Virus record (IMG/VR): IMGVR_UViG_3300043409_001318 | Location: 1-64,000 of that record | Direction: 5' to 3' (one strand) | Origin: a virus | Length of the DNA: 64,000 nucleotides | Part shown: positions 47,222-62,563 of the stretch, piece by piece | Position numbering within the stretch: the stretch's first letter is position 1 | Layout of the letters: each line of letters opens with the position of its first letter | Translations under genes and position numbers: made by a program | Notes under the pieces: generated by a model | What the model saw: only the letters and a program-made list of their open reading frames with translations | Database searches by the model: none | What the model was told of the DNA's origin: nothing

Positions 47222-47551
47222 TTGTCTAAACATAAGAAAAGAGGTATACAGGTAGGTGACCCTGTAAAACTAAAAATAAGCAGATCATCAAGACCACCAA
47301 GAAGAGTGGAAACCCCAGAAGAATTAGGGATAGGAACCGTTGTTGAAAAACTAACAGGACTTTTTCTATATCCTCACGAAAAAAATATTATATTTGAATA
47401 TGATAGCGAATTAGATCCTAATTATATTAGTTATAAAAGTTCCAAAGAAAAAGAAGTAGAACAAACTTCAATATGTAAAGTTTATTGGTTTGGAATAGAT
47501 AAAGACAAATGGGAATATGAAAAAGATTTAGAAGTCTTGACGGATAACTGA
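47222..47551 (+). CDS. SH3/KOW-like protein
   Basis: IQVGDPVKLK...GIGTVVE...KVYWF. Confidence 0.55.
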   Translation: MSKHKKRGIQVGDPVKLKISRSSRPPRRVETPEELGIGTVVEKLTGLFLYPHEKNIIFEYDSELDPNYISYKSSKEKEVEQTSICKVYWFGIDKDKWEYEKDLEVLTDN

Positions 47552-47570
47552 AAGGGGTTAAAGTGTGGCT

Positions 47571-47744
47571 ATGGAAAAGACTACAAGAAGCACTCAAAAG
47601 GGCTCTGCTCGTCGGGAACACTTTAAGAGGGGCAATACCCCATCTATGTGGAGAGGTTCAGCCAAGACCTTTACAGATAGGCGCAAGCAGGATAATAGAA
47701 ACAAGTGTCGTCGCAGAGGCCAAGAAAGAAATGAAGATATTTAG
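47571..47744 (+). CDS. Small basic protein (not in ORF track)
   Basis: MEKTTRSTQKGSARREHFKRGNTPSMWRGSAKTFTDRRKQDNRNKCRRRGQERNEDI; TTGACG promoter at 47537. Confidence 0.55.
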   Translation: MEKTTRSTQKGSARREHFKRGNTPSMWRGSAKTFTDRRKQDNRNKCRRRGQERNEDI

Positions 47745-47979
47745 AACAGGTGATCTTGTAAGAACAATAGGTCATTGGGATGGTTGGGTTACCCTTGGAA
47801 TTGCTTATAGTTATGAAGATTGGTTAGAAGCTTCAAAAGAACAAGACAGCGAACACAATAGGCGTTATGTGTATATACAAACCATTTCGGGCAAGCAAGT
47901 AGAAAAACACCCAGAGTCCGGTTATGAATTAGGTGGGTTTTACCCAGATAATCTTGAAAGAATTTCCACAACGGAGTAA
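47731..47979 (+). CDS. SH3/KOW-like microprotein
   Basis: MKIFRTGDLVRT; likely true start of track ORF 47563. Confidence 0.55.
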   Translation: MKIFRTGDLVRTIGHWDGWVTLGIAYSYEDWLEASKEQDSEHNRRYVYIQTISGKQVEKHPESGYELGGFYPDNLERISTTE

Positions 47980-48116
47980 AAATGGAAAAGAAGATGCGCG
48001 GATCTTATGTAGATGGTTCTTATGTTCCAGCACAAGAGGAGCAGGTAGTTGTTAAGGTTATTAGTCTTAAAAATCCAAAGACGCTTGACAATAAAGATAA
48101 GAAGTAATAAGAGGGA

Positions 48117-48575
48117 TTGATGGAAAGAGAAGAATGGAAAAGTAATTTCACAGAAGAAATGAGAGAATATTTTTATCGTGCTCTCTTTTTCCATAAGAAG
48201 GACCATAGAAATAAGAAGAATTCACTTAACAGAATTGTATATAAATATATAATTCCTAAACATGAATTAGAAAACATAGAATATTATAGTATAATCCCAA
48301 CTGAAGGCGAATATAAAAGAGTAATAACAAATCGTAATTTTGTTAAATACTGCGAAAGAAGAAACAAAAGATTTAATGTTGGCGATTTGGTTTGGTATAT
48401 GTTACACTATGGTCCAAGTAAAGAACGTGTCGCTATCGTTACAAATATACGAGATTATTCAAGTGGTTGGATATACACCATTAAATATATTGCTAATGGT
48501 GATGAAGTATCAGTATCCTCCGATGGAGTTATAGGTGTTGAAGCCAGAAATCTTGATAAAGAAAATGACTATTAG
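48117..48575 (+). CDS. Hypothetical protein with C-terminal SH3/KOW-like domain
   Basis: RFNVGDLVWY...AIVTNI...YTIKY; TTGACA promoter at 48085. Confidence 0.6.
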   Translation: MMEREEWKSNFTEEMREYFYRALFFHKKDHRNKKNSLNRIVYKYIIPKHELENIEYYSIIPTEGEYKRVITNRNFVKYCERRNKRFNVGDLVWYMLHYGPSKERVAIVTNIRDYSSGWIYTIKYIANGDEVSVSSDGVIGVEARNLDKENDY

Positions 48576-48652
48576 AAACTCCTTGACTTTGTTAATAAAA
48601 GTGTTATATATAATTGTTGGCTATTTGATAGGTTTGGCTTATAGAGGTTTTG

Positions 48653-48880
48653 TGGGTTAGGGATTAGATAGACTTTAAATATATATTTGTTTAGGTTGTA
48701 GGCTACTATCAACCTTGTTACCTCCAAACACTAGGTTTAAATCTAAGGGATTACCTATTAATTCCTGTTTGACGATTTAAACTGAAGTTGGGTTTGTGTG
48801 GAAGGGCAGTAACGTAAATTAGAATGTAGCTAGTCCGAGAGTAACAAAGATACTCTTACTTTTATCTAATCCCTAATCCA
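48653..48880 (+). ncRNA. Candidate structured non-coding RNA (about 230 nt)
   Basis: 20-bp closing helix 48653-48672/48861-48880 plus three internal hairpins; ORF-free; TTGACT promoter at 48583. Confidence 0.6.
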
Positions 48881-48900
48881 TTTTACTACATGAGGTTTAA

Positions 48901-49425
48901 ATGCTGGAAGTTATTTGTGGTGGAATGTTTGCCGGTAAATCCGAACTTCTTATCCAAAGACTAAATCGAGCTGGATATGCGAAGAAGAATATTATTGCTT
49001 TTAAGCCAGCAATAGATAATCGATATTCAATAACCGAAATTGCTTCTCATTCGGGACATACCTATAAATCAGTAGCAGTTAAATCGGCTACTGATATTAC
49101 CGATTACATTACAAATGATATTGATGTAATTGGAATTGATGAAGCACAATTCTTTGATGATTATATTATTGAACTTGTTGAGATATTATCCAGCAAAGTT
49201 GATATTTATGTAGCAGGATTAGATTTAGATAGTGCTGGTAAGCCGTTTGGTAGTATGCCTTACTTGCTTGCTATCGCTGATAAGGTTACTAAGGTATCTG
49301 CCGTCTGTATGAAGTGTGGTGCTGATGCTACACGTTCTCAAAGACTTGTTGATAGTAAAGAACAGGTTATGGTAGGAGCAAATGGAACCTATGAAGCAAG
49401 ATGCCGAAAGTGTTGGACCCCCTAA
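48901..49425 (+). CDS. tdk: Thymidine kinase
   Basis: GGMFAGKS, FKPAIDNRY, IDEAQF, AGLDLD, CMKCG, YEARCRKC. Confidence 0.97.
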   Translation: MLEVICGGMFAGKSELLIQRLNRAGYAKKNIIAFKPAIDNRYSITEIASHSGHTYKSVAVKSATDITDYITNDIDVIGIDEAQFFDDYIIELVEILSSKVDIYVAGLDLDSAGKPFGSMPYLLAIADKVTKVSAVCMKCGADATRSQRLVDSKEQVMVGANGTYEARCRKCWTP

Positions 49426-49639
49426 ATATTCTCTTGGTCAAATAGTTGTAGCAGATCTTTCACTTGATAAGGTTATTGGTTATGTTATTGAAGTCCAAGA
49501 AGATAACTTTGGAAACTTTAATGGATGGTATAAAATATATGATCTTTATGCTGGAACATTTCCTCCACAATTTGAAGCAAAAGAGGATTGGATAGAAACC
49601 TATGAAGAATTTTCAGATCGGAGACATTCTAAAATATAA
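49382..49639 (+). CDS. SH3/KOW-like microprotein
   Basis: KYSLGQIV...IGYVIEV. Confidence 0.5.
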   Translation: MEPMKQDAESVGPPKYSLGQIVVADLSLDKVIGYVIEVQEDNFGNFNGWYKIYDLYAGTFPPQFEAKEDWIETYEEFSDRRHSKI

Positions 49640-49817
49640 TAAGGGAGAGTATATTATTAATTACTTTCTTGTTGTTAATAGAACAGAAATCAAATCTAAT
49701 CTTCATCATGCTGGATATCTTGTCGAGTATAAGATAAAGAACATGGAAACAGATGGAATTAATATTATATTTAGTGATGATAAAGTTATAAGCAGATTTG
49801 TGAGGCAAAATGAATAA
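49602..49817 (+). CDS. SH3/KOW-like microprotein
   Basis: MKNFQIGDILKY. Confidence 0.6.
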   Translation: MKNFQIGDILKYNKGEYIINYFLVVNRTEIKSNLHHAGYLVEYKIKNMETDGINIIFSDDKVISRFVRQNE

Positions 49818-50013
49818 TCAAATTAAACTTGGTGATATCGTTCATGTTGCGATGAACCCGGATATTATGGCTTACGTCACAGATATTCGTAGTCAAAAAG
49901 ATACACAAGAAGCATTTAAAAATCTATACTATGTTGAGTTTTTTAGTGGTCCCCTTACAGAAGGAAAGCATGTAACTTATTATTATGCTCACGAAATTAG
50001 AAAGGTTACTTAA
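49810..50013 (+). CDS. SH3/KOW-like microprotein
   Basis: IKLGDIVHV...YYVEFF...RKVT. Confidence 0.6.
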   Translation: MNNQIKLGDIVHVAMNPDIMAYVTDIRSQKDTQEAFKNLYYVEFFSGPLTEGKHVTYYYAHEIRKVT

Positions 50014-50303: not shown

Positions 50304-50347
50304 CGATCTCTCTAAACTGATTAAGTAGAAGAAGAAGGAGAAAGAAA

Positions 50348-51016: not shown

Positions 51017-51039
51017 GATAGAAACATGAAGGAGAGAAG

Positions 51040-51129: not shown

Positions 51130-51195
51130 AGAAAGTTAAAGAAACCCTTGACGAGAGACAACGAAGAGGGTACATTGAAAGGGTGAGGAGAAGAA

Positions 51196-51408: not shown

Positions 51409-51431
51409 TAGAGTGGTTAAGATAGAGAAGG

Positions 51432-51455
51432 AAGCAGAGAGGTTCAAGTCCTCTC
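51432..51455 (+). repeat. T-arm-like 24-bp repeat, copy 1
   Basis: AAGCAGAGAGGTTCAAGTCCTCTC, just downstream of TTGACG-N17-TAAGAT. Confidence 0.8.
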
Positions 51456-51800
51456 AACTGAATAATGCCTGTGCCTATGACAGTTAGAACAGAGAAGAAC
51501 ACACTTATCAAGTTCTGCTATCATAGTTTCAAGCTTAACAATTCTCATTTTGCTCCAATCAATATCTTTTGAAGCAGGATCTAAATGATGAAAATCGTAA
51601 ACATATGGAGGATAAACTTGGTTACAATCCAAACATTTTCCTCCTTTGTAATTAATAGCCCATTCGCGTCTTTGTTTCCACTTATCGTTTGAAACTTTGT
51701 CTTTACAAACTTTACAGTGACTATAAACACCTTTTTTTCTATCTTTTTGTTTATAGAATTCGTTAATATCTTTTTCTTGATTACATTTAGTGCATAGCAT
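51444..51800 (-). mobile_element. HNH endonuclease, the only convincing minus-strand gene
   Basis: CTKC, CKVC, CLDC, DFHH, LCSNCH; GGAGG RBS and ACTATTTA (51818-51825, minus strand) upstream of ATG 51800. Confidence 0.8.
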
Positions 51801-51907
51801 TTTATTGCCTCCACTAATAAATAGTAGGATAGAAAGAAAACTTCTCTCCAAGAAAAGAAAAAAAGACACTTGACAAGCGAAACGAGACACAATAGATTAG
51901 ATAGTGA

Positions 51908-51937: not shown

Positions 51938-52014
51938 GTGGGGATAGCTCAAATGGATAGAGCAAAAGTTTTCTACACTTTAGGTTGAAGGTTCAAGTCC
52001 TTCTCTCCACGCCA
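51938..52014 (+). tRNA. tRNA-Arg(UCU)
   Basis: Cloverleaf folded by hand; loop TTTCTAC; encoded CCA. Confidence 0.92.
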
Positions 52015-52081
52015 CTTTAACAATATGCTATACCGATTATGATGCTTTTAAAAGCTCGTTTAAACCAACTGTAAACATTAT

Positions 52082-52158
52082 CCACCTTTAGCTCAGTTGG
52101 TCAGAGCAATAAGCTTATATCTTATCGGTCCCCCGTTCAAATCGGGGAAGGTGGACCA
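52082..52158 (+). tRNA. tRNA with UAU anticodon (Ile)
   Basis: Stem ATAAG/CTTAT, loop CTTATAT; CCA. Confidence 0.9.
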
Positions 52159-52221
52159 ATCAGCTTGAAACTACTTGACACCTTTGCGAAGCGTGTTAAA
52201 GTATAGGCAAGCAAACAGTAC

Positions 52222-52307
52222 GGCTCCTTGGTGGAATGGTATACACAGCAGACTTAAAATCTGTCGCCCTCACGGGCTTGCGAGTTCAAGTCTCGCAGGA
52301 GCCACCA
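52222..52307 (+). tRNA. tRNA-Leu(UAA)
   Basis: Loop CTTAAAA, long variable arm, CCA. Confidence 0.93.
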
Positions 52308-52313
52308 CTTTTT

Positions 52314-52400
52314 GGGAAGATGGTGTAATGGTAGCCACGACAGACTCAAAATCTGTTGCTTAACGTAAGCGTAAGGGTTCAAGTCCCTTTCTTCCCACCA
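52314..52400 (+). tRNA. tRNA-Leu(CAA)
   Basis: Loop CTCAAAA, long variable arm, CCA. Confidence 0.93.
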
Positions 52401-52406
52401 CATTAC

Positions 52407-52492
52407 GGAGAATTAGTCTAATTGGTAAGGCAACGGATTTGAAATCCGTCGAGGTAAAACTCTTACACGTTCAAGTCGTGTATTCTCCGCCA
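52407..52492 (+). tRNA. tRNA-Ser(UGA)
   Basis: Loop TTTGAAA, long variable arm, G73, CCA. Confidence 0.93.
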
Positions 52493-52497
52493 TTTTA

Positions 52498-52573
52498 GGG
52501 ACGGTAGCTCAGTTGGTAGAGCAAGGGCCTTTTAAGCCCAAGGTCGTGGGATCGTGCCCCACCCGTCCCACCA
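52498..52573 (+). tRNA. tRNA-Lys(UUU), atypical T-loop
   Basis: Loop CTTTTAA; T-loop ATCGTGC; CCA. Confidence 0.88.
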
Positions 52574-52579
52574 CTTTTT

Positions 52580-52655
52580 GCCTGTATAGCTCAGTTGGTA
52601 GAGCACTATCTTTGTAAGCTAGTGGTCACCCGTTCAAATCGGGTTACAGGCTCCA
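52580..52655 (+). tRNA. tRNA-Thr(UGU)
   Basis: Loop TTTGTAA; one anticodon-stem mismatch; CCA. Confidence 0.9.
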
Positions 52656-52660
52656 CATAC

Positions 52661-52735
52661 GGTCCCATCGTCTAGTGGTTAAGACTCCAGCTTTTCACGC
52701 TGGCAATCGGAGTTCAATTCTCCGTGGGACTACCA
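52661..52735 (+). tRNA. tRNA-Glu(UUC)
   Basis: Loop TTTTCAC; CCA. Confidence 0.93.
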
Positions 52736-52739
52736 TTTT

Positions 52740-52815
52740 GGCACTATAGCTCAGTTGGTAGAGCAAGCGTTTCATACACGTTCGGTCACTTGTTCAAATC
52801 AAGTTAGTGCCACCA
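52740..52815 (+). tRNA. tRNA-CAU (probably elongator Met)
   Basis: Loop TTCATAC; paired G1-C72, so not initiator; CCA. Confidence 0.85.
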
Positions 52816-52828
52816 TAAAGTTAATTAG

Positions 52829-52913
52829 GGGAGCATCGCATAGCGGCAATTGCAAGGGACTGTAAATCCTTTCTCATACGAGTTCGTTGGTTCGAGTCCA
52901 ACTGTTCCCACCA
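52829..52913 (+). tRNA. tRNA-Tyr(GUA)
   Basis: Loop CTGTAAA, long variable arm, CCA. Confidence 0.93.
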
Positions 52914-52919
52914 TTTTAT

Positions 52920-52996
52920 TCCCGATTAGCTCAGTTGGTTAGAGCAACGGACTGTTAATCCGTGGGTCGTGTGTTCAAATCACACATCGGGAGCCA
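52920..52996 (+). tRNA. tRNA-Asn(GUU)
   Basis: Loop CTGTTAA; U1-A72, G73; CCA. Confidence 0.93.
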
Positions 52997-53016: not shown

Positions 53017-53652
53017 ATGTATGAATTTCTTAAAGAAGTTAGGGAACTTAAATATACTTCTAATTCATATTCGGACGCAAAGCATGAAAATGAAGTAAAA
53101 AACTTGTTAATTAAGCATGGATTTTCTGAAAAAATCATAGATACTAAAAAGCTACCTGTTATGGCTATTCGTGACTCTTTACTTGAAGAAGAACAAACAT
53201 ATATTGATATTATACAAAATAATGAATTTGTATATCAATTTTGTGGTAAGAATGATTCACCAGATTTTATTTTAAAGTTAAATGATAAATTTTATTTTAT
53301 AGAATGTAAAACTAATAAAAGTGCTTCGTTCCCTGTATACAATAGCGGAAAACCAAAGCAAAAATATATATATATTTTTAGTAGTGGTAAATATAATCAA
53401 ACAACTTTCTTTTGGGGTAGAGATATAATAACAAAAGAAAAAGATCGTCTGTTTTCAAACCTAATAGAAAAAATAAATAAAACGATCAAAGAGACTGAGT
53501 TAGATCCTGCTTGGGAAGATGATGTTGGACTTGGTTTCTATTGTAGAGCGATGTATCATCATATTGGTAAATCTGATAAAACTGATTATATTAAACATAA
53601 GTATAGAACAACCCGTGAGGAAAACGTACTAAATGAATTCTTACAAAATTGA
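53017..53652 (+). CDS. PD-(D/E)xK nuclease, probable type II restriction endonuclease
   Basis: SPDF...FIECKT...YNSG; overlaps the MTase gene. Confidence 0.65.
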   Translation: MYEFLKEVRELKYTSNSYSDAKHENEVKNLLIKHGFSEKIIDTKKLPVMAIRDSLLEEEQTYIDIIQNNEFVYQFCGKNDSPDFILKLNDKFYFIECKTNKSASFPVYNSGKPKQKYIYIFSSGKYNQTTFFWGRDIITKEKDRLFSNLIEKINKTIKETELDPAWEDDVGLGFYCRAMYHHIGKSDKTDYIKHKYRTTREENVLNEFLQN

Positions 53653-54481
53653 AAATGGTAACTGTTTGGAAGTTATTAAAAATCATCAAGATGAAAGTTT
53701 TGATGCCTGTATAACTGATCCGCCATATGGTATGGGAATGGAATTTTGGGATCATTCAGTACCATCTGTAGATATTTGGAAAGAAATTTATAGGGTATTA
53801 AAACCCGGTTCTTTTTGTCTAGCTTTTTGTAGCCCTCAATTATACCATAGACTAGCTCTTAACATAGAAGATGCTGGTTTCAAAATTCAAGATCAAATTA
53901 TGTGGATGAGCACTACCAAAATGCCAAAAGTAAATAAGCTAAAACCAGCTCATGAACCTATTGTTGTAGCTCAAAAACTTTTTAGTGGAACTATAGAAAG
54001 CAACTTTAATAAATATGGAGTTGGTAAAATAGATATTGAAAGTGTTAGAATACCTTGGGATAAAGAACCTCCTAAAAATTGGGTAGCACAAGGTTCTAAA
54101 CGTAGAACTTTTGGGAAGCAAGGTAATACAAAAGGTGGTGCTGATATCTATGGAAAGGTGGATGCTAATATTAACGGAAGATACCCTTCTAATATTGTTG
54201 GCGAAACTCTGTCTGAACATCAAAAATATTTTTATGCTCCAAGAGTAACATCAAAAGAAAGACTAGAGTTTAACGATCATCCAACTCCAAAACCAATTAG
54301 CTTAATGGAATATCTAATAAAGATTTATTGTCCAAAAGATAAACTAGTATTAGATCCTTTCTGTGGTAGTGGCTCCACAGGTATTGCCGCTCTCTTAAAT
54401 GAAAGAAATTTTCATGGTATTGAAATGGAACAGAAATATTGTGAAATAGCAGAAAAGAGAATAGAAAACTATCTAAATTAA
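53633..54481 (+). CDS. beta-class N4C/N6A DNA methyltransferase
   Basis: ITDPPY, HPTPKP, VLDPFCGSGST. Confidence 0.93.
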   Translation: MNSYKIENGNCLEVIKNHQDESFDACITDPPYGMGMEFWDHSVPSVDIWKEIYRVLKPGSFCLAFCSPQLYHRLALNIEDAGFKIQDQIMWMSTTKMPKVNKLKPAHEPIVVAQKLFSGTIESNFNKYGVGKIDIESVRIPWDKEPPKNWVAQGSKRRTFGKQGNTKGGADIYGKVDANINGRYPSNIVGETLSEHQKYFYAPRVTSKERLEFNDHPTPKPISLMEYLIKIYCPKDKLVLDPFCGSGSTGIAALLNERNFHGIEMEQKYCEIAEKRIENYLN

Positions 54482-54542: not shown

Positions 54543-54580
54543 AAAACCCCTTAATCACAAAATGGTTAAGGGGTTTTTCT
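54543..54580 (+). terminator. Rho-independent terminator (possibly bidirectional)
   Basis: AAAACCCCTTAATCA/TGGTTAAGGGGTTTT. Confidence 0.8.
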
Positions 54581-54591
54581 TTTTATCCCCC

Positions 54592-54619
54592 TTGACTTCT
54601 TCTTCAGCCACGATAAGAT
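54592..54619 (+). promoter_or_regulatory. sigma70-like early promoter
   Basis: TTGACT-N16-TAAGAT. Confidence 0.6.
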
Positions 54620-54625
54620 TGAAGC

Positions 54626-54826
54626 ATGATGAAAAGAAAGAACAGGTTTGATGTTGGAGACATTATCAAATTTAATTCTACACATGATTTGTCTAGTTAT
54701 TATTATCTAATTGTAGGAGAAGAAACAGAGAATTATTCAGACAATTATTTAGTTCTTTGCTTTGGTGATGGTTATGAATATCCTCTTGAAAAAAGCAACT
54801 CTCACTTCTATGATAAGGTGTCCTAA
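54626..54826 (+). CDS. SH3/KOW-like microprotein
   Basis: RFDVGDIIKF...KVS*. Confidence 0.65.
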   Translation: MMKRKNRFDVGDIIKFNSTHDLSSYYYLIVGEETENYSDNYLVLCFGDGYEYPLEKSNSHFYDKVS

Positions 54827-55050
54827 TGCTTCAAATTGGTGATTTGGTTGAATTAGTAAAACATATTGCTCTAAAAAATCAAGACCGCTATAAGGCTGAC
54901 CAACTCTATAAACCTTCTAATGTTTATGGACTTATTACTAAAATCTCCAGCGGTTATTATGATAACAAAGTAAACTATTATACCGTTATGTGGCTTACAA
55001 CGGGCGATAGTTATAAGTATGAAGCAGAAGAATTAGTAAAGGTATCATAA
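54826..55050 (+). CDS. SH3/KOW-like microprotein
   Basis: MLQIGDLVELV...YGLIT...YTVMW...KVS*. Confidence 0.7.
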   Translation: MLQIGDLVELVKHIALKNQDRYKADQLYKPSNVYGLITKISSGYYDNKVNYYTVMWLTTGDSYKYEAEELVKVS

Positions 55051-55253
55051 TGAAGTATAAAATTGGTGATATTCTTTGTTATGAAGATAAATTTGAAAAT
55101 ACTATTGTTGGTTCAGTACATTTTCTTATTACTGATGTGGATGTGGACGAAGTGCTATATTATTTTATGTGTCTTGATGAAGAAGTTGATCCAAATGCGT
55201 CATATAGTATAACTTTTGTTGATAGTTCCCCAAAATGGAGGAAGGTATCATAA
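55050..55253 (+). CDS. SH3/KOW-like microprotein
   Basis: MKYKIGDIL...KVS*. Confidence 0.7.
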   Translation: MKYKIGDILCYEDKFENTIVGSVHFLITDVDVDEVLYYFMCLDEEVDPNASYSITFVDSSPKWRKVS

Positions 55254-55459
55254 TGAAGTATAAAATCGGAGATATCTGCTATTATCGTGGATATCTCGCA
55301 AAAATTCCAAAATATGTTTTAATTGTTGATGAAGTAAGAGAGGGTCTTAAAGAAATGATATTTTTGGAAGATGGTTATAGATTTGTCGGCAAAGAACTTT
55401 ATTTATTGCCCCTTGACTTCCTTCGAAAGATTGATAAGGTAGAAGAAGAGGAAGCCTAA
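55253..55459 (+). CDS. SH3/KOW-like microprotein
   Basis: MKYKIGDICY...PLDFLRKID. Confidence 0.7.
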   Translation: MKYKIGDICYYRGYLAKIPKYVLIVDEVREGLKEMIFLEDGYRFVGKELYLLPLDFLRKIDKVEEEEA

Positions 55460-55683
55460 TGTTCCAAATTGGTGACCTTGTTCAAGTGAAAACACGCCTC
55501 AAAAACGATGCAGATAATCGACAATTAGTAGGAATTGTTGAAAGTGTTGTAGACGGTAAAGTTGGCGTTCGTTATTTAAATACTAATGACTTTGGATTTC
55601 ATATTTATAGTGGTATTACAGTTTACACAAATCCCCTTGACTATCTTCGAAAGATTGATAGTATTGTTGAAAAGGTAAAGTAA
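55459..55683 (+). CDS. SH3/KOW-like microprotein
   Basis: MFQIGDLVQV...VGIV...PLDYLRKID. Confidence 0.7.
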   Translation: MFQIGDLVQVKTRLKNDADNRQLVGIVESVVDGKVGVRYLNTNDFGFHIYSGITVYTNPLDYLRKIDSIVEKVK

Positions 55684-55684
55684 A

Positions 55685-56011
55685 ATGGAAATCCCCCTTA
55701 CTTATTCTTCGCAAGCAGTTAAGGCCCGTGGAAATAATATTAATGAGAAACTACAATATCTTATTAATTGGTATACAAAAACAGGTAAGGATATTGAACC
55801 TTCTTGGGAATTTCAACGAGAACTTATGGAGTTTACAAAGCATTGGACTTTTGGACTTATCCAGCTTATGCGCGAAACTCCCGAAGAAACAAAGGAAGAA
55901 ATTATTAATCATCTACCGGATATTGAATATGTAATAATGAATTCTAAAAAGTCAGCTAATACGGTAGGTGCTATGTATCTTTATTGTGAACTACAAAATA
56001 TTGTGAGGTAA
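55685..56011 (+). CDS. Hypothetical protein
   Basis: AAGGT RBS. Confidence 0.6.
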   Translation: MEIPLTYSSQAVKARGNNINEKLQYLINWYTKTGKDIEPSWEFQRELMEFTKHWTFGLIQLMRETPEETKEEIINHLPDIEYVIMNSKKSANTVGAMYLYCELQNIVR

Positions 56012-56012
56012 T

Positions 56013-56210
56013 ATGATTTTTTCTCTTTTAATTATGTCTATTGGTTTTACCGCTTTTTGTATTCTCCATGAGGAAATCCCACCAAAAAAGCAAATTGTTC
56101 TTAAAATTCCAATCATTCCTGTTGTTGTCGATTTGATAGAAGATGATTATGTTTCAGATCCCGAAGAGATTGATCCTCCAACAATGATAATGCCAAGGAA
56201 GCAAAAATGA
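56013..56210 (+). CDS. Small membrane protein
   Basis: GAGGT RBS; N-terminal hydrophobic helix. Confidence 0.5.
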   Translation: MIFSLLIMSIGFTAFCILHEEIPPKKQIVLKIPIIPVVVDLIEDDYVSDPEEIDPPTMIMPRKQK

Positions 56211-56434
56211 AGTTGACTGAATATCTAAATAATTCTATCACCGATGAAACTTCTGTAATTTTTGGAAAGTTTGGAGCAATTGAAAGTTTTAATTTAAATC
56301 CTAATGAAAAAGTAAAAGTTCTTACTCAAAAGATTATGAGGGACAAAAAGTATTTCTCAATCGATACCTTGACGGTCAACAAGAGTGGAGATATCTTGTT
56401 GATTGAAAGCGGAGATAAGAAGTGGGTGCCGTAA
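56207..56434 (+). CDS. Hypothetical protein
   Basis: ATGA overlap. Confidence 0.5.
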   Translation: MKLTEYLNNSITDETSVIFGKFGAIESFNLNPNEKVKVLTQKIMRDKKYFSIDTLTVNKSGDILLIESGDKKWVP

Positions 56435-56634
56435 AGTTTAATTATGGGGATCTTGTCACCATTCAAGTAAATTATAGTAAATCTAATACTAATTTTGCGC
56501 GTCAAGGCTCCATAGGAATTATTATTGAACCAACAAAAGATTATACTCGCGGTTCTAATGTTGTGAAGGTATTTGGTAGTGATGATGAATGGTATCTTAG
56601 AAATAATGAAATGGATCTTCTTCATCGTGCTTGA
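56422..56634 (+). CDS. SH3/KOW-like microprotein
   Basis: KFNYGDLVTI...IGII. Confidence 0.6.
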   Translation: MGAVKFNYGDLVTIQVNYSKSNTNFARQGSIGIIIEPTKDYTRGSNVVKVFGSDDEWYLRNNEMDLLHRA

Positions 56635-56684
56635 CGGCTAAACGATAATGGTGATATACTTTTGGTTGAGAGTGGAGAACAAAG

Positions 56685-56909
56685 ATGAGTTCCCTAAAAT
56701 ATGCTGCTGGTGATATTGTTGTAAACTTTAATATTGGTGATATTGTTATTGTTAACTCCGAAGCATATGAAGAAGCTTTTGTAGGTGAAATAGGATATGT
56801 AGCATCAATGCCTTATCTATCTTTTTCATATATTACGTTTTTTAGTGATCCAGAACAAGAGATATTGTTTAAGAACTCCGAAATCTTTCTTAAACCTCTT
56901 GACGGCTAA
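56685..56909 (+). CDS. SH3/KOW-like microprotein
   Basis: FNIGDIVIV...GEIGYV. Confidence 0.6.
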   Translation: MSSLKYAAGDIVVNFNIGDIVIVNSEAYEEAFVGEIGYVASMPYLSFSYITFFSDPEQEILFKNSEIFLKPLDG

Positions 56910-56944
56910 ACAACAACAGGCTAAGGTATAAGCATCGGAGGAAA
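56899..56944 (+). promoter_or_regulatory. Promoter-RBS cassette, copy 1
   Basis: TTGACG-N17-TAAGGTATAAGCATCGGAGGAAA; last 23 bp identical at 61502-61524. Confidence 0.7.
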
Positions 56945-57258
56945 TGATGATGAATAACCGTCCCGAAATTGGCGATATGATTATGCTTCTTCGTCCCGAA
57001 ATCCGCGAACTTCCTCCCAAGGTTCGTCGTGGTCGTCCTCCCAAGGTTCCGCGTATTGAAACGGAAACTACTTGGCACGACGACGTTGAAGCAATCATTC
57101 TTAGTGGTCCTACGCAGGGAATTTCGTCCGATGGTGAAGATTATTGGCTGGAGTGGTTGACCCAGCGACTTGACAACGGAAAGAAGTGTGTTATTAGTAG
57201 TGGCGGCAGAGGATACATGAGTAATACCTTCCGTATTGTGCGAAGGGCAAATGAGTGA
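56944..57258 (+). CDS. SH3/KOW-like protein with inserted AT-hook-like motif
   Basis: RPEIGDMIML...RRGRPPK. Confidence 0.6.
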   Translation: MMMNNRPEIGDMIMLLRPEIRELPPKVRRGRPPKVPRIETETTWHDDVEAIILSGPTQGISSDGEDYWLEWLTQRLDNGKKCVISSGGRGYMSNTFRIVRRANE

Positions 57259-57455
57259 AGAAATTTGTAAAGAATAGTGTATGGTTTGCTTCACCAACCA
57301 ACGAAACCAAACCATTTTATTTTATTGTAATTCGTCCTCGCCCTATGGATATGAAGATTTCTATTTACAATTTTGATAGTGGCGAAATCAAAGAAAACTA
57401 TTATTTTAAATATGAAGAGATGGACCTAAATTATATCTTGACGAGGATTGACTAA
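57255..57455 (+). CDS. Hypothetical microprotein
   Basis: GTGA overlap. Confidence 0.5.
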   Translation: MKKFVKNSVWFASPTNETKPFYFIVIRPRPMDMKISIYNFDSGEIKENYYFKYEEMDLNYILTRID

Positions 57456-57655
57456 TGCGAAAGTTCTTTAAGGATGTTGTGCTTGGCGATATTCTAATTT
57501 CAAAGCAGAGTATCAGCGGTATTAACTTTGTTGGAGTTGTTGAAACTATCGAACATGCACCAAAGCAATCTGTATCGATTAGAACTTTTCGCGAAGGCAA
57601 GACTTATATTATTCATGGTTCTTCAATTGGAGATACATGGGAAATTGTGACGTAA
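57455..57655 (+). CDS. SH3/KOW-like microprotein
   Basis: VVLGDILIS...VGVV. Confidence 0.55.
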   Translation: MRKFFKDVVLGDILISKQSISGINFVGVVETIEHAPKQSVSIRTFREGKTYIIHGSSIGDTWEIVT

Positions 57656-57673
57656 ACAATAAAGGAAATTAAC

Positions 57674-57880
57674 ATGAAACTAATGCATGGTGATATACTT
57701 GTATACAAAAGTAATTTGTTCTTCGTTCTAAACCCTTCTCGTTTAGTATATGATGATGGTTCTTTTTTAGTGCTCGTCCAAAATTTAGAAGATAGTGGAG
57801 ATTTTAGAAACATTAATTCTACATACCATCTTGACAGCGGTATGTGGACCCGATACAATAACCAAACAAAGGAGAACTAA
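57674..57880 (+). CDS. SH3/KOW-like microprotein
   Basis: MKLMHGDILVY. Confidence 0.55.
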   Translation: MKLMHGDILVYKSNLFFVLNPSRLVYDDGSFLVLVQNLEDSGDFRNINSTYHLDSGMWTRYNNQTKEN

Positions 57881-57881
57881 A

Positions 57882-58088
57882 TTGACTTTCCGTGGCTTTT
57901 TCAATGATGATGCGAAGAGTGATAATGATAGTGATGTGATTATTTGTTCCGTTCATGGAGAATACCCAGCTTCTATGAAGGCTTTTGGGTGTCCCGAATG
58001 TGTTAAGGAAGCAGAAGACGAAGAGCAAGAAGAAGAAATGCTTAATAAGTCTAAAATTGCTCGCTTTAATACTCCAAGGAAGCGATAA
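57882..58088 (+). CDS. Small Zn-ribbon-like protein
   Basis: GGAG RBS, TTG 57882; CSVHG...CPEC. Confidence 0.5.
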   Translation: MTFRGFFNDDAKSDNDSDVIICSVHGEYPASMKAFGCPECVKEAEDEEQEEEMLNKSKIARFNTPRKR

Positions 58089-58252
58089 TGCCTATTTACA
58101 ATGATTTAACTGAAAAAGAAATAATCCAAAATCTTGTTGAAGATAAGATTTTACTTGAAGCAAAAGTAAAGCAGTTAGAAGCAGAAGTAAAAGGTCTTAA
58201 ACAAACAGACAGAAAATCTAAAATTATTCCTATCTACAATTTGGGAGATTAA
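58088..58252 (+). CDS. Small coiled-coil protein (not in track)
   Basis: MPIYNDL...LEAKVKQLEAEVKGL; TAATG overlap. Confidence 0.5.
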   Translation: MPIYNDLTEKEIIQNLVEDKILLEAKVKQLEAEVKGLKQTDRKSKIIPIYNLGD

Positions 58253-58292
58253 TCAAAAGCATCAAATATTTAATTGATTTTGATGCTTTTGA
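58253..58292. repeat. Perfect 14-bp inverted repeat
   Basis: TCAAAAGCATCAAA/TTTGATGCTTTTGA, upstream of ACTATTTA at 58304. Confidence 0.8.
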
Positions 58293-58330
58293 CGTAGTTT
58301 AAAACTATTTATTTCATAGGAGAAAATTCT

Positions 58331-59035
58331 ATGGAAGAAAATATAAAACTAAAAGAACAAAAAAAAAGATGGTATCAAGCCAATAAAGAACGGCTCAATC
58401 AAAAACAAAAAGAGCGTAACGAAGTCAATAAAGAACTAATAAGAGAAAGAAAAAAAAGATACGGGCAAGAAAATAAAGAAAAGATTTCAAATTTTAAAAA
58501 AGAGTGGTATCTTAAAAACAAAGAGAGAATTTTAGAAAATAGAAAAGAATATTATGAAAGTAATAAAGAACAAATAACTAAATATAAAAAAGAGTGGCAT
58601 CTAAAAAATAGACCAAAACGCTTGTTAGAGTTTAAAAGATATAATGAAGAAAACCAAGATAAAATTAAACAACAAAAAGCAATTTACAAAAGTAAATATC
58701 CAAACAAAAACAAAGAAAGTTCTTCTGCGTACAGACGTAAATATTTTGATAAGTTTAAAAGATATAGTATTACAAAATATGGGATTACGATTAAACAATA
58801 TCAAGATTTATTAGATAAACAATTACATAAATGCTATATATGTAAAATTGAAACCAAGAAGAACGGAAGAAGGTTATGTATAGACCACGATCATATTAAT
58901 GGTAAAGTTAGGGGTTTGTTGTGTAATCTTTGTAATTCCATATTAGGCTACGCAAAAGATAATATTGAAATATTACAAAACGCAATAAAATATTTACAAG
59001 AACCTCCATTCCAATCGGTTGACGAGGTAAAGTAA
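58331..59035 (+). mobile_element. EndoVII-type HNH homing endonuclease with N-terminal repeats
   Basis: CYIC...CIDHDH..GKVRGLLCNLCN; about 15-aa K.WY..NKE repeats. Confidence 0.85.
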
Positions 59036-59053
59036 ACAGATTAAGAGGTTTCT

Positions 59054-59254
59054 ATGAACGACCGAACCCTTTATGAATTCCAAATTGGGGATATTGTAGC
59101 CCATCGCATGAATGAGAATTTGACGGGGATCGTTCTTGAAACCAAATTTCTAAATCATAAAGATAGAGAAATTCTTTATATTTGTTGGTTTGCCGAAGGT
59201 CCAGCATCTAAAAAGCGTTATCCAGCCGCACATATCGTAAAGGTATCGTCGTGA
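59054..59254 (+). CDS. SH3/KOW-like microprotein
   Basis: FQIGDIVAH...TGIV...ICWF...KVSS*. Confidence 0.7.
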   Translation: MNDRTLYEFQIGDIVAHRMNENLTGIVLETKFLNHKDREILYICWFAEGPASKKRYPAAHIVKVSS

Positions 59255-59448
59255 AATATGAAATTGGGGATATTGTAAGATTGAAAGATACTAAGTTAAT
59301 TGGTATTGTTTTAGATTTTCACTTAGAACCAAATTCATCTTCAATTTTTGACGCTCAATCTTATCTTGAAATTCTTTTATTTCATAATAATATTTCCATG
59401 AAATATACATATTTTCCCCATTATGATAATTTTGAGAAGATATCATAA
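59251..59448 (+). CDS. SH3/KOW-like microprotein
   Basis: MKYEIGDIVRL...IGIV...KIS*. Confidence 0.7.
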   Translation: MKYEIGDIVRLKDTKLIGIVLDFHLEPNSSSIFDAQSYLEILLFHNNISMKYTYFPHYDNFEKIS

Positions 59449-59469
59449 ATTTTTATAGGAGAAACTAAA

Positions 59470-59550
59470 ATGTCTGTTGATCCTTTTTTGATTGTAGTTT
59501 TTTTAGGTTTTTTCTTCGCTATCTATTCTGCTGCGAAACTTCGTCTTTAA
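59470..59550 (+). CDS. 26-aa single-TM microprotein (not in track)
   Basis: AGGAG RBS; MSVDPFLIVVFLGFFFAIYSAAKLRL. Confidence 0.45.
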   Translation: MSVDPFLIVVFLGFFFAIYSAAKLRL

Positions 59551-59602
59551 CCCTTGCGCTCTTCCTACAACCCGTTAAGATTAGTTTGAAGAGAGGAAGA
59601 AA

Positions 59603-60223
59603 ATGAAAGGCTATCGTCGTCAGTCTAAATGCTCTTTCTGCTCCACCGTGGGTCATAATCGACGGGGCTGCGAATTATTTAAAAGTTCCAGAAACCAAAT
59701 TGTAGAGAAATATAAGATTTTCCGTGCAAAATGGTGGGAAGCTTACAAAGATCTTCCTTATGGCTATGGAACTATTTACGAACACGCGCTTGGAAGTTAT
59801 TGCCACAACGAAAAAGGACAATGGACCCGTTGCGAAGTTAATAATCTACTTACCGATACCATTGTGGGTATTATGCTTCCAAGCCTTATTAATGAAAGCG
59901 GAAATCTTATTGTTTCGGCTTTTTCTAATATTGAAGATAAAAGTAAGCACAATTATATTGAACTTCCTTTTGTTAAGGGATACATTACGGAATACTCCCG
60001 CAGAATAAACTCTCATGGATTTACTTATTGCGCTTTTCAAGAACCTTTTGAGAAGAATATTCTTTCTTTTGGAGCGACCCTTGCGGAAAGTGTAGACCGG
60101 GATAAGCTGAAGGAGTGGTTGGAAGCCGAAGATCTTCACAAGTCTTATAGGTTTATGGACCCTTCAACTTCTTACGATAATCTTATGGAAGGTTATGGAA
60201 TGAATACTGAAATCGTCGGGTAA
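59603..60223 (+). CDS. CCHC zinc-knuckle protein
   Basis: CSFCSTVGHNRRGC. Confidence 0.7.
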   Translation: MKGYRRQSKCSFCSTVGHNRRGCELFKSSRNQIVEKYKIFRAKWWEAYKDLPYGYGTIYEHALGSYCHNEKGQWTRCEVNNLLTDTIVGIMLPSLINESGNLIVSAFSNIEDKSKHNYIELPFVKGYITEYSRRINSHGFTYCAFQEPFEKNILSFGATLAESVDRDKLKEWLEAEDLHKSYRFMDPSTSYDNLMEGYGMNTEIVG

Positions 60224-60288
60224 AAGAAACTTGAAATCGTCCTTGACGGTGGACTTCAACGGGTTAATAGTAGAAGACAAGGGAGGAA

Positions 60289-61023
60289 ATGATGGGATCG
60301 TGCCGTTTCTGTGGAAGCAAAGGACATAATCGTAATGGTTGCCCCGATGTTGCGGCTCACGCTGCCAGCGGCAAGGCAAAGATCGTAGAAGGACAGGATC
60401 GCTATTCTCTTGATTGGAGGGAGCGTTTCGCGGTTTCTATCCAAGAGAACAAGGCTACCCGTTCTGCTCGTGTATCTACTTCTCCTCGCAAGTGTTCCTA
60501 TTGCTCCGTAGCGGGTCATACGCGCGCAACCTGCACTACTCTTGTTGAGGATCGGCAAGCAGCTTTCAATCACGAAAAGACGTTCCGCACTAATTTTGTG
60601 AATTGGGTTGCTAATAGCGGAATTGGTATTGGAACAATTCTAACTCGTCAAATGTGGGATAATACAGAGTTTTCGCTGCTTGTGCTTGGTGTGGATTACA
60701 AAACAATCAATATTTTGAATACTCATGGAAGTAATGTTATTCGCGCGCAGTATCTTAATCGTGTTGGTTGGGAAAATGAGGTAGGAAATTACAATATTGC
60801 TCCAATTAAATCTTTTGGGTTTGAAATTTCCGCTCCTGCTTCTTCCGTTCCTGTTCCCGAAAGTTTCCTAAATGAAGAAGTAATTAAGAATTTGGTTGAT
60901 GGTTGGTTTGATGGAAAAAGCACGCGCTCTTCTCGTTGGGATAATTATAACGCTGGTTGTTTCCGCGTAGGTCGGCCCGATCTTACGGATTTGAGCGAGA
61001 AGGCAAAGATTTACGCAGTTTAG
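60289..61023 (+). CDS. Protein with two CCHC zinc knuckles
   Basis: CRFCGSKGHNRNGC and CSYCSVAGHTRATC. Confidence 0.75.
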   Translation: MMGSCRFCGSKGHNRNGCPDVAAHAASGKAKIVEGQDRYSLDWRERFAVSIQENKATRSARVSTSPRKCSYCSVAGHTRATCTTLVEDRQAAFNHEKTFRTNFVNWVANSGIGIGTILTRQMWDNTEFSLLVLGVDYKTINILNTHGSNVIRAQYLNRVGWENEVGNYNIAPIKSFGFEISAPASSVPVPESFLNEEVIKNLVDGWFDGKSTRSSRWDNYNAGCFRVGRPDLTDLSEKAKIYAV

Positions 61024-61032
61024 AAATTATTT

Positions 61033-61069
61033 AGCCCTCCTTGACTTCCGGGTCTTGGAGGGCTAATCA
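61033..61069 (+). promoter_or_regulatory. sigma70-like promoter with the -35 enclosed in a hairpin
   Basis: AGCCCTCC-TTGACT...-GGAGGGCT; TTGACT-N17-TAATCA. Confidence 0.55.
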
Positions 61070-61086
61070 TTAGTGGGAGACGAAAA

Positions 61087-61299
61087 ATGAAGTTCGATGT
61101 TGAAGAAGCAATTGAAGAAATCCTTGTCGAAGGTTTTAGCGAGGGAGATCTTTTGCGAGCGGTCCTTGCAGTTCTTCCAAAAAGTGATATTGCTGAAATT
61201 CTAAATTCAGCCGAAGAACACCTTTTTGCTGGTAAGGAAGAAGAGGAAGAAGATTGGGATAGCGACGAAGATCAAATTGACGAGGAAGAAGAATTCTAA
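61087..61299 (+). CDS. Very acidic microprotein
   Basis: E/D-rich; GGGAG RBS. Confidence 0.6.
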   Translation: MKFDVEEAIEEILVEGFSEGDLLRAVLAVLPKSDIAEILNSAEEHLFAGKEEEEEDWDSDEDQIDEEEEF

Positions 61300-61490
61300 T
61301 GCTTAACGTCGGAGATCTTGTTGAAGTAATTTACAGGCAAAATAAACCTGCGATCATAATCTCCATTTTTAAGGAAAGAGACAATAAAGATAAATTTAAA
61401 GAACTGAAAACTTATTATGTCGTTAAACATTTTGAGGATGAAGGAACAGGAGAATGGTTGGAAACTTCGCTCCGACGCTTGACGGCTTGA
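61299..61490 (+). CDS. SH3/KOW-like microprotein
   Basis: MLNVGDLVEV...YYVV. Confidence 0.65.
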   Translation: MLNVGDLVEVIYRQNKPAIIISIFKERDNKDKFKELKTYYVVKHFEDEGTGEWLETSLRRLTA

Positions 61491-61524
61491 AAGCACAAGG
61501 ATAAGGTATAAGCATCGGAGGAAA
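61479..61524 (+). promoter_or_regulatory. Promoter-RBS cassette, copy 2
   Basis: TTGACG-N17-TAAGGTATAAGCATCGGAGGAAA. Confidence 0.7.
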
Positions 61525-61527
61525 GAA

Positions 61528-61824
61528 ATGGCTGGTGAAAGACTTTGCGGGAATTGTGGTGAGCCTAACCATAACCGGCGCACTTGTAAAAACCTCGCAA
61601 AAGCTCCAGCCGTAAGGGAGGTCGCCCCTTTTCCCCAAATCCCTGCTATTCCTTTTAAGCAGGTTGAACGGGTAGAATATGAGGGTGACCTCCCGATAGT
61701 CGATATGACGCCTTGCCTTCTTCGACTAAAAGGTTATACCCAAATCTGTTCGGGGTCGTTCCGTATGACCGTTCCCGATGATACCACCTTCGATCAAATC
61801 TCTAACTATGTCTTTTGGAGATAA
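61528..61824 (+). CDS. CCHC zinc-knuckle protein
   Basis: CGNCGEPNHNRRTC. Confidence 0.7.
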   Translation: MAGERLCGNCGEPNHNRRTCKNLAKAPAVREVAPFPQIPAIPFKQVERVEYEGDLPIVDMTPCLLRLKGYTQICSGSFRMTVPDDTTFDQISNYVFWR

Positions 61825-61825
61825 T

Positions 61826-62044
61826 ATGCGAGAATACCAGCGGTTCAACCTTGGAGATATTGTCAAGCATAAGTATCAAAATAATCATGGTTATATTTTT
61901 AAGGTTCATAGTCCATATTATGCCGTGCTTAACCCTCACAACGAAGCTTATACGGTTATATGGTTTAACGAAGACCTTAACGACCGTCTAAGGTATGGAT
62001 ACGATCAAATCGAACTTGGCGATATTATCGTAAAGGTGTCCTAA
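61826..62044 (+). CDS. SH3/KOW-like microprotein
   Basis: RFNLGDIVKH...YTVIWF...KVS*. Confidence 0.7.
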   Translation: MREYQRFNLGDIVKHKYQNNHGYIFKVHSPYYAVLNPHNEAYTVIWFNEDLNDRLRYGYDQIELGDIIVKVS

Positions 62045-62235
62045 TGTTCCAAATCGGTGATATTGTTGAACTTTATAACTCCGAAGAAGATAAAGTTCAT
62101 ACAGGTATGATATCTTCCAATATTATGGCTTCTACTTGGCATGATGAAGAAGAAGAATATTATAAAGTTGTTTGGTTTGATGAAAAAAATTCCTTGACGG
62201 AAGAACATTATTCTAATCTTGAAAAGGTATCCTAA
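62044..62235 (+). CDS. SH3/KOW-like microprotein
   Basis: MFQIGDIVEL...YKVVWF...KVS*. Confidence 0.7.
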   Translation: MFQIGDIVELYNSEEDKVHTGMISSNIMASTWHDEEEEYYKVVWFDEKNSLTEEHYSNLEKVS

Positions 62236-62393
62236 TGCTCCAAATTGGCGATATCGTAAATTTTAGTTATCTTACGGGTTTTGTAGTAAAACTTGACAAA
62301 GATCATTTTTGGATTAAGTGGTTTGATCTGGAAGAAGAATATGCTTATCATCTTTCCCAAGAAACACTTTTTCTAATCAAAAAGGTATCGTAA
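62235..62393 (+). CDS. 52-aa SH3/KOW-like microprotein (not in track)
   Basis: MLQIGDIVNF...IKWF...KKVS*. Confidence 0.7.
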   Translation: MLQIGDIVNFSYLTGFVVKLDKDHFWIKWFDLEEEYAYHLSQETLFLIKKVS

Positions 62394-62563
62394 TGTTTCA
62401 AATTGGTGATATTGTAATGATGGAGGAAGATAAACAAGAGGGAGAAATTTACGGATATGTGACCGAATTTGAAGAAGAAACCCTTTATCTTTGCGTTTCT
62501 TGGTTTGACGGGCAAAAAAGCATAGAATTCCCTAATCATGTGAAAAAGGTAGAAAATGGCTAA
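62393..62563 (+). CDS. 56-aa SH3/KOW-like microprotein (not in track)
   Basis: MFQIGDIVMM...YGYV...VSWF...KKVENG*. Confidence 0.7.
   Translation: MFQIGDIVMMEEDKQEGEIYGYVTEFEEETLYLCVSWFDGQKSIEFPNHVKKVENG

What the first reader, a model, noticed from the sequence alone, without database searches (positions are those of the whole stretch)
47222..62563. Expansion of more than 20 SH3/KOW-like microproteins (50-105 aa)
Seen: recurring (F/Y/L)x(I/V/L)GD(I/L)V start, then G.(I/V) and Y.V.WF strands, often ending KVS. They occur in runs at 49.4-50.0, 54.6-55.7, 56.4-57.9, 59.0-59.4 and 61.3-62.6 kb, with outliers at 8227, 25443 and 34939; two are below the ORF-track cutoff. Known: KOW/SH3 barrels mediate RNAP, ribosome and RNA contacts (NusG, RfaH, L24). 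Inference: a diversified library of one small scaffold used as host-takeover or anti-defence binders.
Basis: partly seen in the sequence, partly recalled or inferred. Interest (0 to 1): 0.75.

Follow-up and report, generated by a model that had tools for sequence, protein, structure and literature searches.

The report
Tandem SH3-like small-protein family in phage
A freshwater T4-type phage carries about 27-30 very divergent copies of one tiny SH3/Tudor-like barrel protein, in back-to-back gene arrays whose copies are gained, lost and swapped at short repeated gene junctions; what the proteins do is unknown.

Summary
Iterated HMMs give 16 solid members in the window, 2 probable, and 27 solid in the whole 184-kb genome. 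One candidate the HMM missed (56944) still folds as the same barrel. AlphaFold2 models of 62044 (pLDDT 91) and 56944 (pLDDT 83, own alignment) match only SH3-like small beta-barrels: Tudor, chromo, PWWP, KOW, CarD, UvrD C-terminal domain and R67 DHFR. No family stands out, and Pfam KOW is not matched. The family is absent from Pfam and almost absent from PHROGs.

New points:
- The 'KVS' ending is partly a nucleotide signal. AAGGTnTCnTAATG combines a Shine-Dalgarno, the stop and the next start (Lys codon AAG 10/10 against 25% genome-wide).
- A syntenic relative carries 23 members with heavy turnover.
- Lake metagenomes hold variants lacking exactly one cassette, between a 25-nt or a 14-nt junction repeat.
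- Retained orthologs are under purifying selection (dN/dS 0.19 core, 0.34 variable positions).
- Members are mostly acidic.
- The arrays lie in an early-type, sigma70-promoter-rich region.

The host-takeover or anti-defence binder reading is plausible but untested.

The parts
48117..48575 (+). 152-aa protein: about 80-aa N-terminal extension plus a C-terminal family domain (residues about 79-131)
   Evidence: Iterated HMM 2e-10; 3.8e-7 with a profile built without it; hhalign 75%; no Pfam hit
49602..49817 (+). family member, 71 aa; the match covers the first two thirds
   Evidence: HMM 1.3e-4 at iteration 0 (not in seed), 4e-5 with the wide profile
49810..50013 (+). family member, 67 aa, ends KVT, TAATG overlap with the next gene
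   Evidence: HMM 1.4e-5 at iteration 0 (not in seed), 3e-14 with the wide profile
54543..54619 (+). terminator-like hairpin (54543-54577), then a TTGACT..TAAGAT promoter-like site (54592-54619), immediately upstream of the 54.6-kb array
   Evidence: consensus scan only, function inferred
54626..54826 (+). family member, 66 aa, ends KVS, TAATG overlap
   Evidence: seed member
54826..55050 (+). family member, 74 aa, ends KVS; 93% identical ortholog in G001
   Evidence: dN/dS 0.21
55050..55253 (+). family member, 67 aa, ends KVS; an optional cassette bracketed by the exact 25-nt repeat AAGGTATCATAATGAAGTATAAAAT (55039 and 55242)
   Evidence: Contigs of runs X3 and X4 join 55038 to 55242 (skips 203 nt, 25 nt fit both sides, flanks of at least 195 nt, depth 11-12); repeat verified; no ortholog in G001
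55256..55459 (+). family member (ORF opens at 55235; the likely start is ATG 55256 = MKYKIGDI)
   Evidence: HMM 1.7e-3 at iteration 0, 4e-9 with the wide profile; junction repeat
55459..55683 (+). family member, 74 aa, ends KVK; replaced by 191 other letters in runs X3 and X4
   Evidence: ortholog 50% identical, dN/dS 0.38
56422..56634 (+). probable member, 70 aa
   Evidence: E 1.7e-3 with the wide profile, hhalign 41%; ortholog 60% identical, dN/dS 0.77
56685..56909 (+). family member, 74 aa; an optional cassette between 14-nt repeats CTTGACGGCTAAAC (56630 and 56898), each holding a TTGACG -35-like element
   Evidence: HMM; contig in run X20 skips 56630-56897 with 14 shared nt; repeat verified; absent from G001; promoter-like sites at 56631 and 56899
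56944..57258 (+). 104-aa SH3-like barrel with a 17-residue beta1-beta2 loop carrying an invariant RGRP (AT-hook-like) core; fold-level member, missed by the HMM
   Evidence: Own alignment of 20 homologs with RGRP invariant; AF2 pLDDT 83.2, five strands; top hits CarD, Spt5 KOW, Tudor, UvrD C-terminal domain, Z 5.3-7.0
57455..57655 (+). probable member, 66 aa
   Evidence: E 2.3e-3 (its ortholog was in the profile), hhalign 76% with the ortholog excluded from the family alignment
59054..59254 (+). family member, 66 aa, ends KVSS; its stop overlaps the GTG start of 59251
   Evidence: ortholog 89% identical, dN/dS 0.10; the G001 ortholog uses AAA Lys and has no coupled downstream gene
59251..59448 (+). 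family member, 65 aa, ends KIS; last gene of its run; no ortholog in G001
61299..61490 (+). family member, 63 aa
   Evidence: HMM 8e-4 at iteration 0 (not in seed), 4e-11 with the wide profile; ortholog 72% identical
61778..62044 (+). family member, 88 aa (an internal ATG may be the true start), ends KVS, TAATG overlap
62044..62235 (+). family member, 63 aa, net charge -11; the copy modelled by AlphaFold2
   Evidence: AF2 pLDDT 91.3; VIA best Z 8.8, rmsd 1.8 A over 58 of 63 residues to a Tudor domain, all 50 top rows SH3-like barrels; charge
62235..62393 (+). family member, 52 aa, ends KVS, TAATG overlap
62393..62563 (+). family member, 56 aa; last gene of the run
   Evidence: the only Pfam hit just above a curated cut-off: PF23044 SH3-C_UBE2O, 21.4 bits against 21

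Best explanation
The finding is a lineage-restricted multigene family of free-standing SH3-like small beta-barrel proteins (50-90 aa) in the early-type, hyperplastic part of a freshwater T4-type phage genome. There are 16-19 copies in this window and 27-30 in the 184-kb genome.

Shown here:
- The copies are homologous over their full length.
- Two copies fold as five-stranded SH3/Tudor-type barrels.
- Only the inward-facing core positions are conserved (phi-x-phi-G-D-phi-V, G.V, Y.V.WF, Y, K-V-S). The surface and the loop lengths after beta1 and between beta2 and beta3 vary freely.
- The genes are packed head to tail, often with the stop overlapping the next start (TAATG).
- The last codons carry a Shine-Dalgarno-like AAGG(T) that is constrained at the nucleotide level, so runs of copies look like translationally coupled operons.
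- Copy content differs strongly between two syntenic relatives.
- Natural lake populations hold variants that lack exactly one cassette between short direct repeats at the junctions. The arrays therefore expand, contract and swap cassettes by recombination at conserved junction or promoter sequences.
- Retained orthologs are under purifying selection.

Inferred, not shown: the proteins are made early from host-type promoters and act as small binding modules. Each would use a different surface on a shared scaffold to engage a host or phage macromolecule, in host takeover or counter-defence. Most are acidic and so more likely bind proteins or mimic nucleic acid. At least one (56944) carries a conserved AT-hook and probably binds DNA.
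For: Family and counts.
Fold: AF2 pLDDT 91.3 and 83.2. Structure searches return only SH3-like barrels, and many of the same chains appear for both models (6if4, 4l5g, 4zn3, 7egs, 5dma, 6hq9, 3fc3, 6kco, 1vie, 2f5k).
Core and loop pattern.
Junction: AAGGTnTCnTAATG. Lys at position -3 is AAG in 10 of 10 members against 25% genome-wide, P about 9e-7. TAATG overlap occurs in 8 of 27 family genes against 15 of 158 large ORFs, and the G001 ortholog without a coupled downstream gene uses AAA.
Second genome: G001 is syntenic at 70-90% nt identity and has 23 members. Orthologs are 38-93% identical, and many members have no counterpart on either side.
Cassette indels: contigs from two studies skip 203 nt at a 25-nt repeat, another skips 268 nt at a 14-nt repeat, and one gene is replaced outright.
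Selection: dN/dS 0.10-0.41 in 13 of the 14 ortholog pairs that could be estimated (dS was saturated in 2 further pairs). Pooled values are 0.19 for core and 0.34 for variable positions, against a neighbour median of 0.20. Family dN is about three times the neighbour median.
Early-type context: TTGAC..TAnnnT sites are concentrated at 50-70 kb (20 of 52) and the late motif TATAAATA is absent from the arrays.
Other: acidity, median pI 5.1 with 16 of 27 below 6. The phage recurs in about 19 freshwater studies. T4 gp23-type capsid present. SH3/Tudor-like barrels are the largest phage-only fold clusters (PMC12487901).
Against: No binding partner, target or phenotype is known for any member or homolog; every database relative is an unnamed hypothetical protein. 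No positive selection is seen on variable positions, which weakens an arms-race reading for retained orthologs. Promoter and terminator calls are consensus matches only. RNA-library contigs overlap several members, but such libraries can contain DNA, so expression is not shown. Structural Z-scores of 5-9 are in the range the tool says can reflect a common arrangement, so no closer functional family can be named. Some family counts rest on iterated profiles built from the same genomes.
Confidence: 0.62

Rival explanations
1. The proteins are nucleic-acid or transcription-machinery binders in the manner of KOW, CarD, Mfd-RID or UvrD Tudor domains. Free-standing barrels would dock on host RNA polymerase, the ribosome or DNA/RNA and redirect gene expression.
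For: Weak profile similarity to Spt5 KOW repeats and L21e (E 0.26-0.33). CarD, NusG/Spt5 KOW and the UvrD/PcrA C-terminal Tudor domain are among the structural hits for both models. 56944 has an invariant AT-hook core. CCHC zinc-knuckle proteins lie between the arrays.
Against: Pfam KOW and CarD families are not matched at E<=0.05 in any of 80 members. Most members are acidic, with net charge down to -11 and only 3 of 27 having pI above 8, which is unlike general nucleic-acid binders. Twenty-seven very divergent surfaces are hard to reconcile with a single docking site. Eukaryotic Tudor, chromo and PWWP domains score as well or better.
Confidence: 0.15
2. The genes are largely dispensable passengers. 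The conserved junction makes the genes easy to duplicate and move by recombination, so they persist as cassettes with little individual function.
For: Cassette presence/absence polymorphism at junction repeats in natural populations. Strong turnover between two close relatives. This parallels PeSL-mediated shuffling of non-essential ORFans in T4-type hyperplastic regions (PMC2839356).
Against: Retained orthologs show purifying selection (dN/dS 0.1-0.4, core 0.19). Frames stay intact in both genomes. The core fold signature is kept across copies that share under 40% identity, so selection acts on the folded protein.
Confidence: 0.13
3. The proteins are subunits of homo- or hetero-oligomeric assemblies, as with the R67 DHFR tetramer or Sm-like rings, and translational coupling sets their stoichiometry.
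For: Overlapping stop/start codons with an embedded Shine-Dalgarno. Fused tandem versions exist in metagenomes: P0013 with two domains and P0014 with about five. R67 DHFR is among the structural hits.
Against: Array composition is not conserved between relatives, and single cassettes come and go, which argues against a fixed multi-subunit complex. The R67 catalytic motif and the Pfam DHFR_2 family are not matched by the phage members.
Confidence: 0.08

Closest known systems
SH3/Tudor-like small beta-barrel clusters of phage proteomes (Viral AlphaFold Database, PMC12487901), e.g. B. subtilis SPbeta YorP (PDB 2heq) and DUF2158/YodC-type small proteins
   Same: Free-standing five-stranded SH3-like barrel of about 60 aa encoded by phages, function unknown. 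YorP appears among the Foldseek hits, DUF2158 gives weak Pfam hits, and many unnamed phage proteins match in BFVD.
   Different: No significant sequence membership in those families. Here one genome carries 27-30 divergent copies in coupled tandem arrays, and I found no description of that.
KOW motif domains (NusG, Spt5, ribosomal L24; Pfam PF00467)
   Same: The first strand phi-x-phi-G-D-x-V followed by a Gly-containing hairpin. KOW domains are among the structural hits at Z 6.8-7.6.
   Different: The Pfam KOW model is not matched. The family is mostly acidic, free-standing and has no NGN partner domain. Tudor, chromo and PWWP domains match as well or better.
Bacterial RNAP-interacting Tudor-like domains (CarD/CdnL N-terminal domain, Mfd RID, UvrD/PcrA C-terminal domain)
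   Same: Same barrel and a similar N-terminal F-x-V-G-D-x-V strand. CarD is the top hit for the 56944 model (Z 7.0) and among the hits for 62044 (Z 7.2).
   Different: No sequence-level match, and no evidence of RNAP contact. The host is unknown.
PeSL (promoter-early stem-loop) cassettes that shuffle ORFans in T4-type hyperplastic regions (PMC2839356, PMC4122927)
   Same: Small non-core genes in hyperplastic regions of T4-type phages, gained, lost and replaced by recombination between short conserved regulatory sequences that flank them. The 14-nt repeat bracketing cassette 56685 contains a sigma70-like -35 element.
   Different: The best-documented repeat here (25 nt at 55039 and 55242) is a coding and translation junction: Shine-Dalgarno, stop/start and the conserved first codons of the next paralog. 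It is not a promoter-terminator unit. The shuffled genes also all belong to one protein family.
R67-type (DfrB) plasmid dihydrofolate reductase
   Same: SH3-like barrel of similar size with a similar strand pattern. Z 7.9 over 56 residues, and a viral DHFR_2 cluster is a near neighbour in the ESM Atlas at 0.88.
   Different: Pfam DHFR_2 is not matched by the phage members, and the R67 active-site stretch is not conserved in the alignment (my reading, not a formal test).

Membership tests
SH3-like small beta-barrel fold (Tudor/chromo/KOW/SH3 superfold) | Five antiparallel strands forming a closed small barrel of about 60 residues, with beta5 pairing with beta1 | tested here: met
   AF2 of 62044: pLDDT 91.3; strands 7-12, 17-30 (hairpin), 36-44, 51-55 and 60-61. 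All 50 top VIA rows are SH3-like barrels; best Z 8.8, rmsd 1.8 A, 58 of 63 residues. AF2 of 56944 from an independent alignment: five strands and the same kinds of hits. These are predicted, not solved, structures.
KOW motif family (Pfam PF00467) | Match to the KOW sequence model at or above its curated cut-off | tested here: not met
   PF00467 is not listed for any of 80 members at E<=0.05. Only KOWx_SPT5 and KOW5_SPT5 appear, in 2 members each, at E 0.007-0.018 and below cut-off. The PDB profile search gives Spt5 at E 0.26.
KOW motif family (Pfam PF00467) | Occurrence next to an NGN domain or inside a ribosomal protein, as in NusG, Spt5, RfaH and L24 | tested here: not met
   Members are free-standing ORFs of 52-88 aa. 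The extended forms (48117, G001 q12237) carry unrelated, unnamed extensions.
Tudor 'royal family' methyl-lysine/arginine readers | Aromatic cage of 3-4 exposed aromatic residues that binds the methylated side chain | not tested
   Conserved aromatics (Y36, W40, F41, Y49 of the profile) follow the alternating core pattern. Model coordinates could not be inspected with the tools at hand.
DUF2158 / YodC (Pfam PF09926) | Match to the family model above its curated cut-off (22.3 bits) | tested here: not met
   Best 15.1 bits, E 0.019, for 62044; 2 of 80 members at E>=0.01. One metagenomic multi-repeat hit carries that name from its source.
R67 dihydrofolate reductase (Pfam PF06442) | Match to the DHFR_2 model | tested here: not met
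   Not listed for any of 80 members at E<=0.05. Only the unrelated long hit P0052 matches.
PeSL-type modular shuffling of T4-type hyperplastic regions | Insertion, deletion or replacement of small genes bounded by short conserved repeats, seen between close relatives | tested here: met
   203-nt and 268-nt cassette deletions bounded by 25-nt and 14-nt exact repeats, and a 236-nt replacement, in natural variants. Differential content between G000 and G001. T4-type capsid confirmed.
PeSL-type modular shuffling of T4-type hyperplastic regions | The repeat unit is a strong sigma70-like promoter plus a terminator stem-loop | tested here: inconclusive
   The 14-nt repeat holds a TTGACG -35-like element, and one terminator-plus-promoter unit precedes the 54.6-kb array. 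The 25-nt repeat, however, is a Shine-Dalgarno/stop/start/N-terminal coding junction without a stem-loop.

The most novel reading that the evidence does not exclude
The arrays are a recombination-driven cassette library: one SH3-like scaffold diversified into dozens of binders. Each binder would neutralise or redirect a different host factor or defence protein. Conserved junctions (Shine-Dalgarno, stop/start and first codons) would serve both as translational couplers and as crossover points, letting phage populations reshuffle their repertoire. That would be an integrase-free counterpart of an integron for phage counter-defence.
Probability: 0.25. Interest if true: 0.85.

Novelty: new variant of a known kind. 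Interest (0 to 1): 0.6.

Why it matters
SH3/Tudor-like small barrels are reported as the commonest phage-specific fold, yet almost none has a known function. This phage offers about 30 natural variants of one scaffold with defined conserved and variable positions, orthologs in a second genome and natural presence/absence variants. That makes a ready-made panel for asking what such proteins bind. The junction finding also shows that a conserved protein ending can really be a ribosome-binding signal for the next gene, and that the same short sequence can mediate cassette gain and loss. This bears on how phage accessory gene repertoires evolve.

Tried and rejected
- Megablast of the region and tblastn of 62044 against GenBank phages: no match.
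- The search for related loci with the alignment, 62044, P0117, P0014 and the 244-aa neighbour in viral contigs, and with P0117 in metagenome contigs: nothing usable. Only the junction DNA pattern found a relative.
The genomic context of the distant metagenomic homologs and a self-association test could therefore not be obtained.
- Foldseek against PDB gave no hit at E<=0.001.
- Pfam on long multi-domain database hits showed assorted SH3-fold families and no informative fusion partner.
- ESM Atlas gave only unnamed viral clusters.
- Literature searches found no description of this family.
- Positive selection on loops was looked for and not found.
- Several further joints have flanks under 40 nt and were set aside as possible repeat artefacts: 55672 to 62034, 61826 to 62043, 62070 to 62233 and 62254 back to 62031.
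- RNA-library contigs over parts of the arrays are not counted as proof of transcription.
- Gene conversion as the cause of junction similarity was considered. Apart from the 25-nt repeat, shared exact runs are only 12-15 nt and may reflect codon bias plus protein and Shine-Dalgarno constraint.

Full report
Context. The window is the first 64 kb of a 184,352-bp IMG/VR virus record, G000. It is AT-rich (30-43% GC per 2-kb window) and almost all genes lie on the + strand. The genome encodes a T4 gp23-type major capsid protein (PF07068, 198 bits). Near-identical DNA occurs in about 19 independent freshwater or lake metagenome studies. The region of the finding follows a thymidine kinase-like ORF (48901-49425, named by eye) and contains 11 tRNA genes (51938-52996), a DNA methyltransferase-like ORF (53633-54481, named by eye) and an endonuclease VII-family gene (58331-59035).

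Noticed in passing
window 59603-60223, 60289-61023, 61528-61824: Three proteins between the arrays carry CxxCxxxGHxxxxC zinc-knuckle-like motifs (two in 60289-61023). Pfam gives only sub-threshold hits (zf-C2H2_10 at 1.6e-5, zf-CCHC_2 at 0.021). CCHC knuckles are unusual in phages, and the function is unknown.
   Followed up: partly
window 58331-59035: An endonuclease VII-family gene (PF02945, 1.7e-24) is missing (58251-59011 skipped) from contigs of three runs, X3, X4 and X20. Its closest G001 relative is only 40% identical and sits elsewhere. It behaves like an optional or mobile gene.
   Followed up: partly
window 56944-57258: The loop between strands 1 and 2 carries a K/R-R-G-R-P-P/S-K AT-hook-like motif whose RGRP core is invariant in 20 homologs. 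This suggests DNA minor-groove binding by this one member.
   Followed up: partly
L016:12237-12701 (G001) versus window 63280-63519: In the relative, a family barrel is fused in frame to the homolog (92% identical) of the 79-aa window protein 63280-63519, which stands alone in G000. This is a possible functional link, and neither part has a known family.
   Followed up: no
window 51938-52996: A tight block of 11 tRNA genes (Arg, Ile, Leu x2, Ser, Lys, Thr, Glu, Met, Tyr, Asn) lies between the small-gene arrays.
   Followed up: no
window 51444-51890 (- strand): One of the few minus-strand ORFs. It is Cys/His-rich, with CxxC pairs and an HH..N..H pattern that looks like an HNH nuclease by eye. 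Not tested.
   Followed up: no
window 55235-55459: The ORF opens at 55235 inside the preceding gene's KVS codons. The repeat structure and the family N-terminus indicate that the real start is ATG 55256 (MKYKIGDI).
   Followed up: yes
G000 67340-67981 (L004:3340-3981) and its G001 ortholog: A 213-aa protein outside the window has a partial match to the first half of the family profile near its C-terminus (E 8e-4, and 1.7e-4 in G001). It may be a degenerate or fused copy.
   Followed up: no
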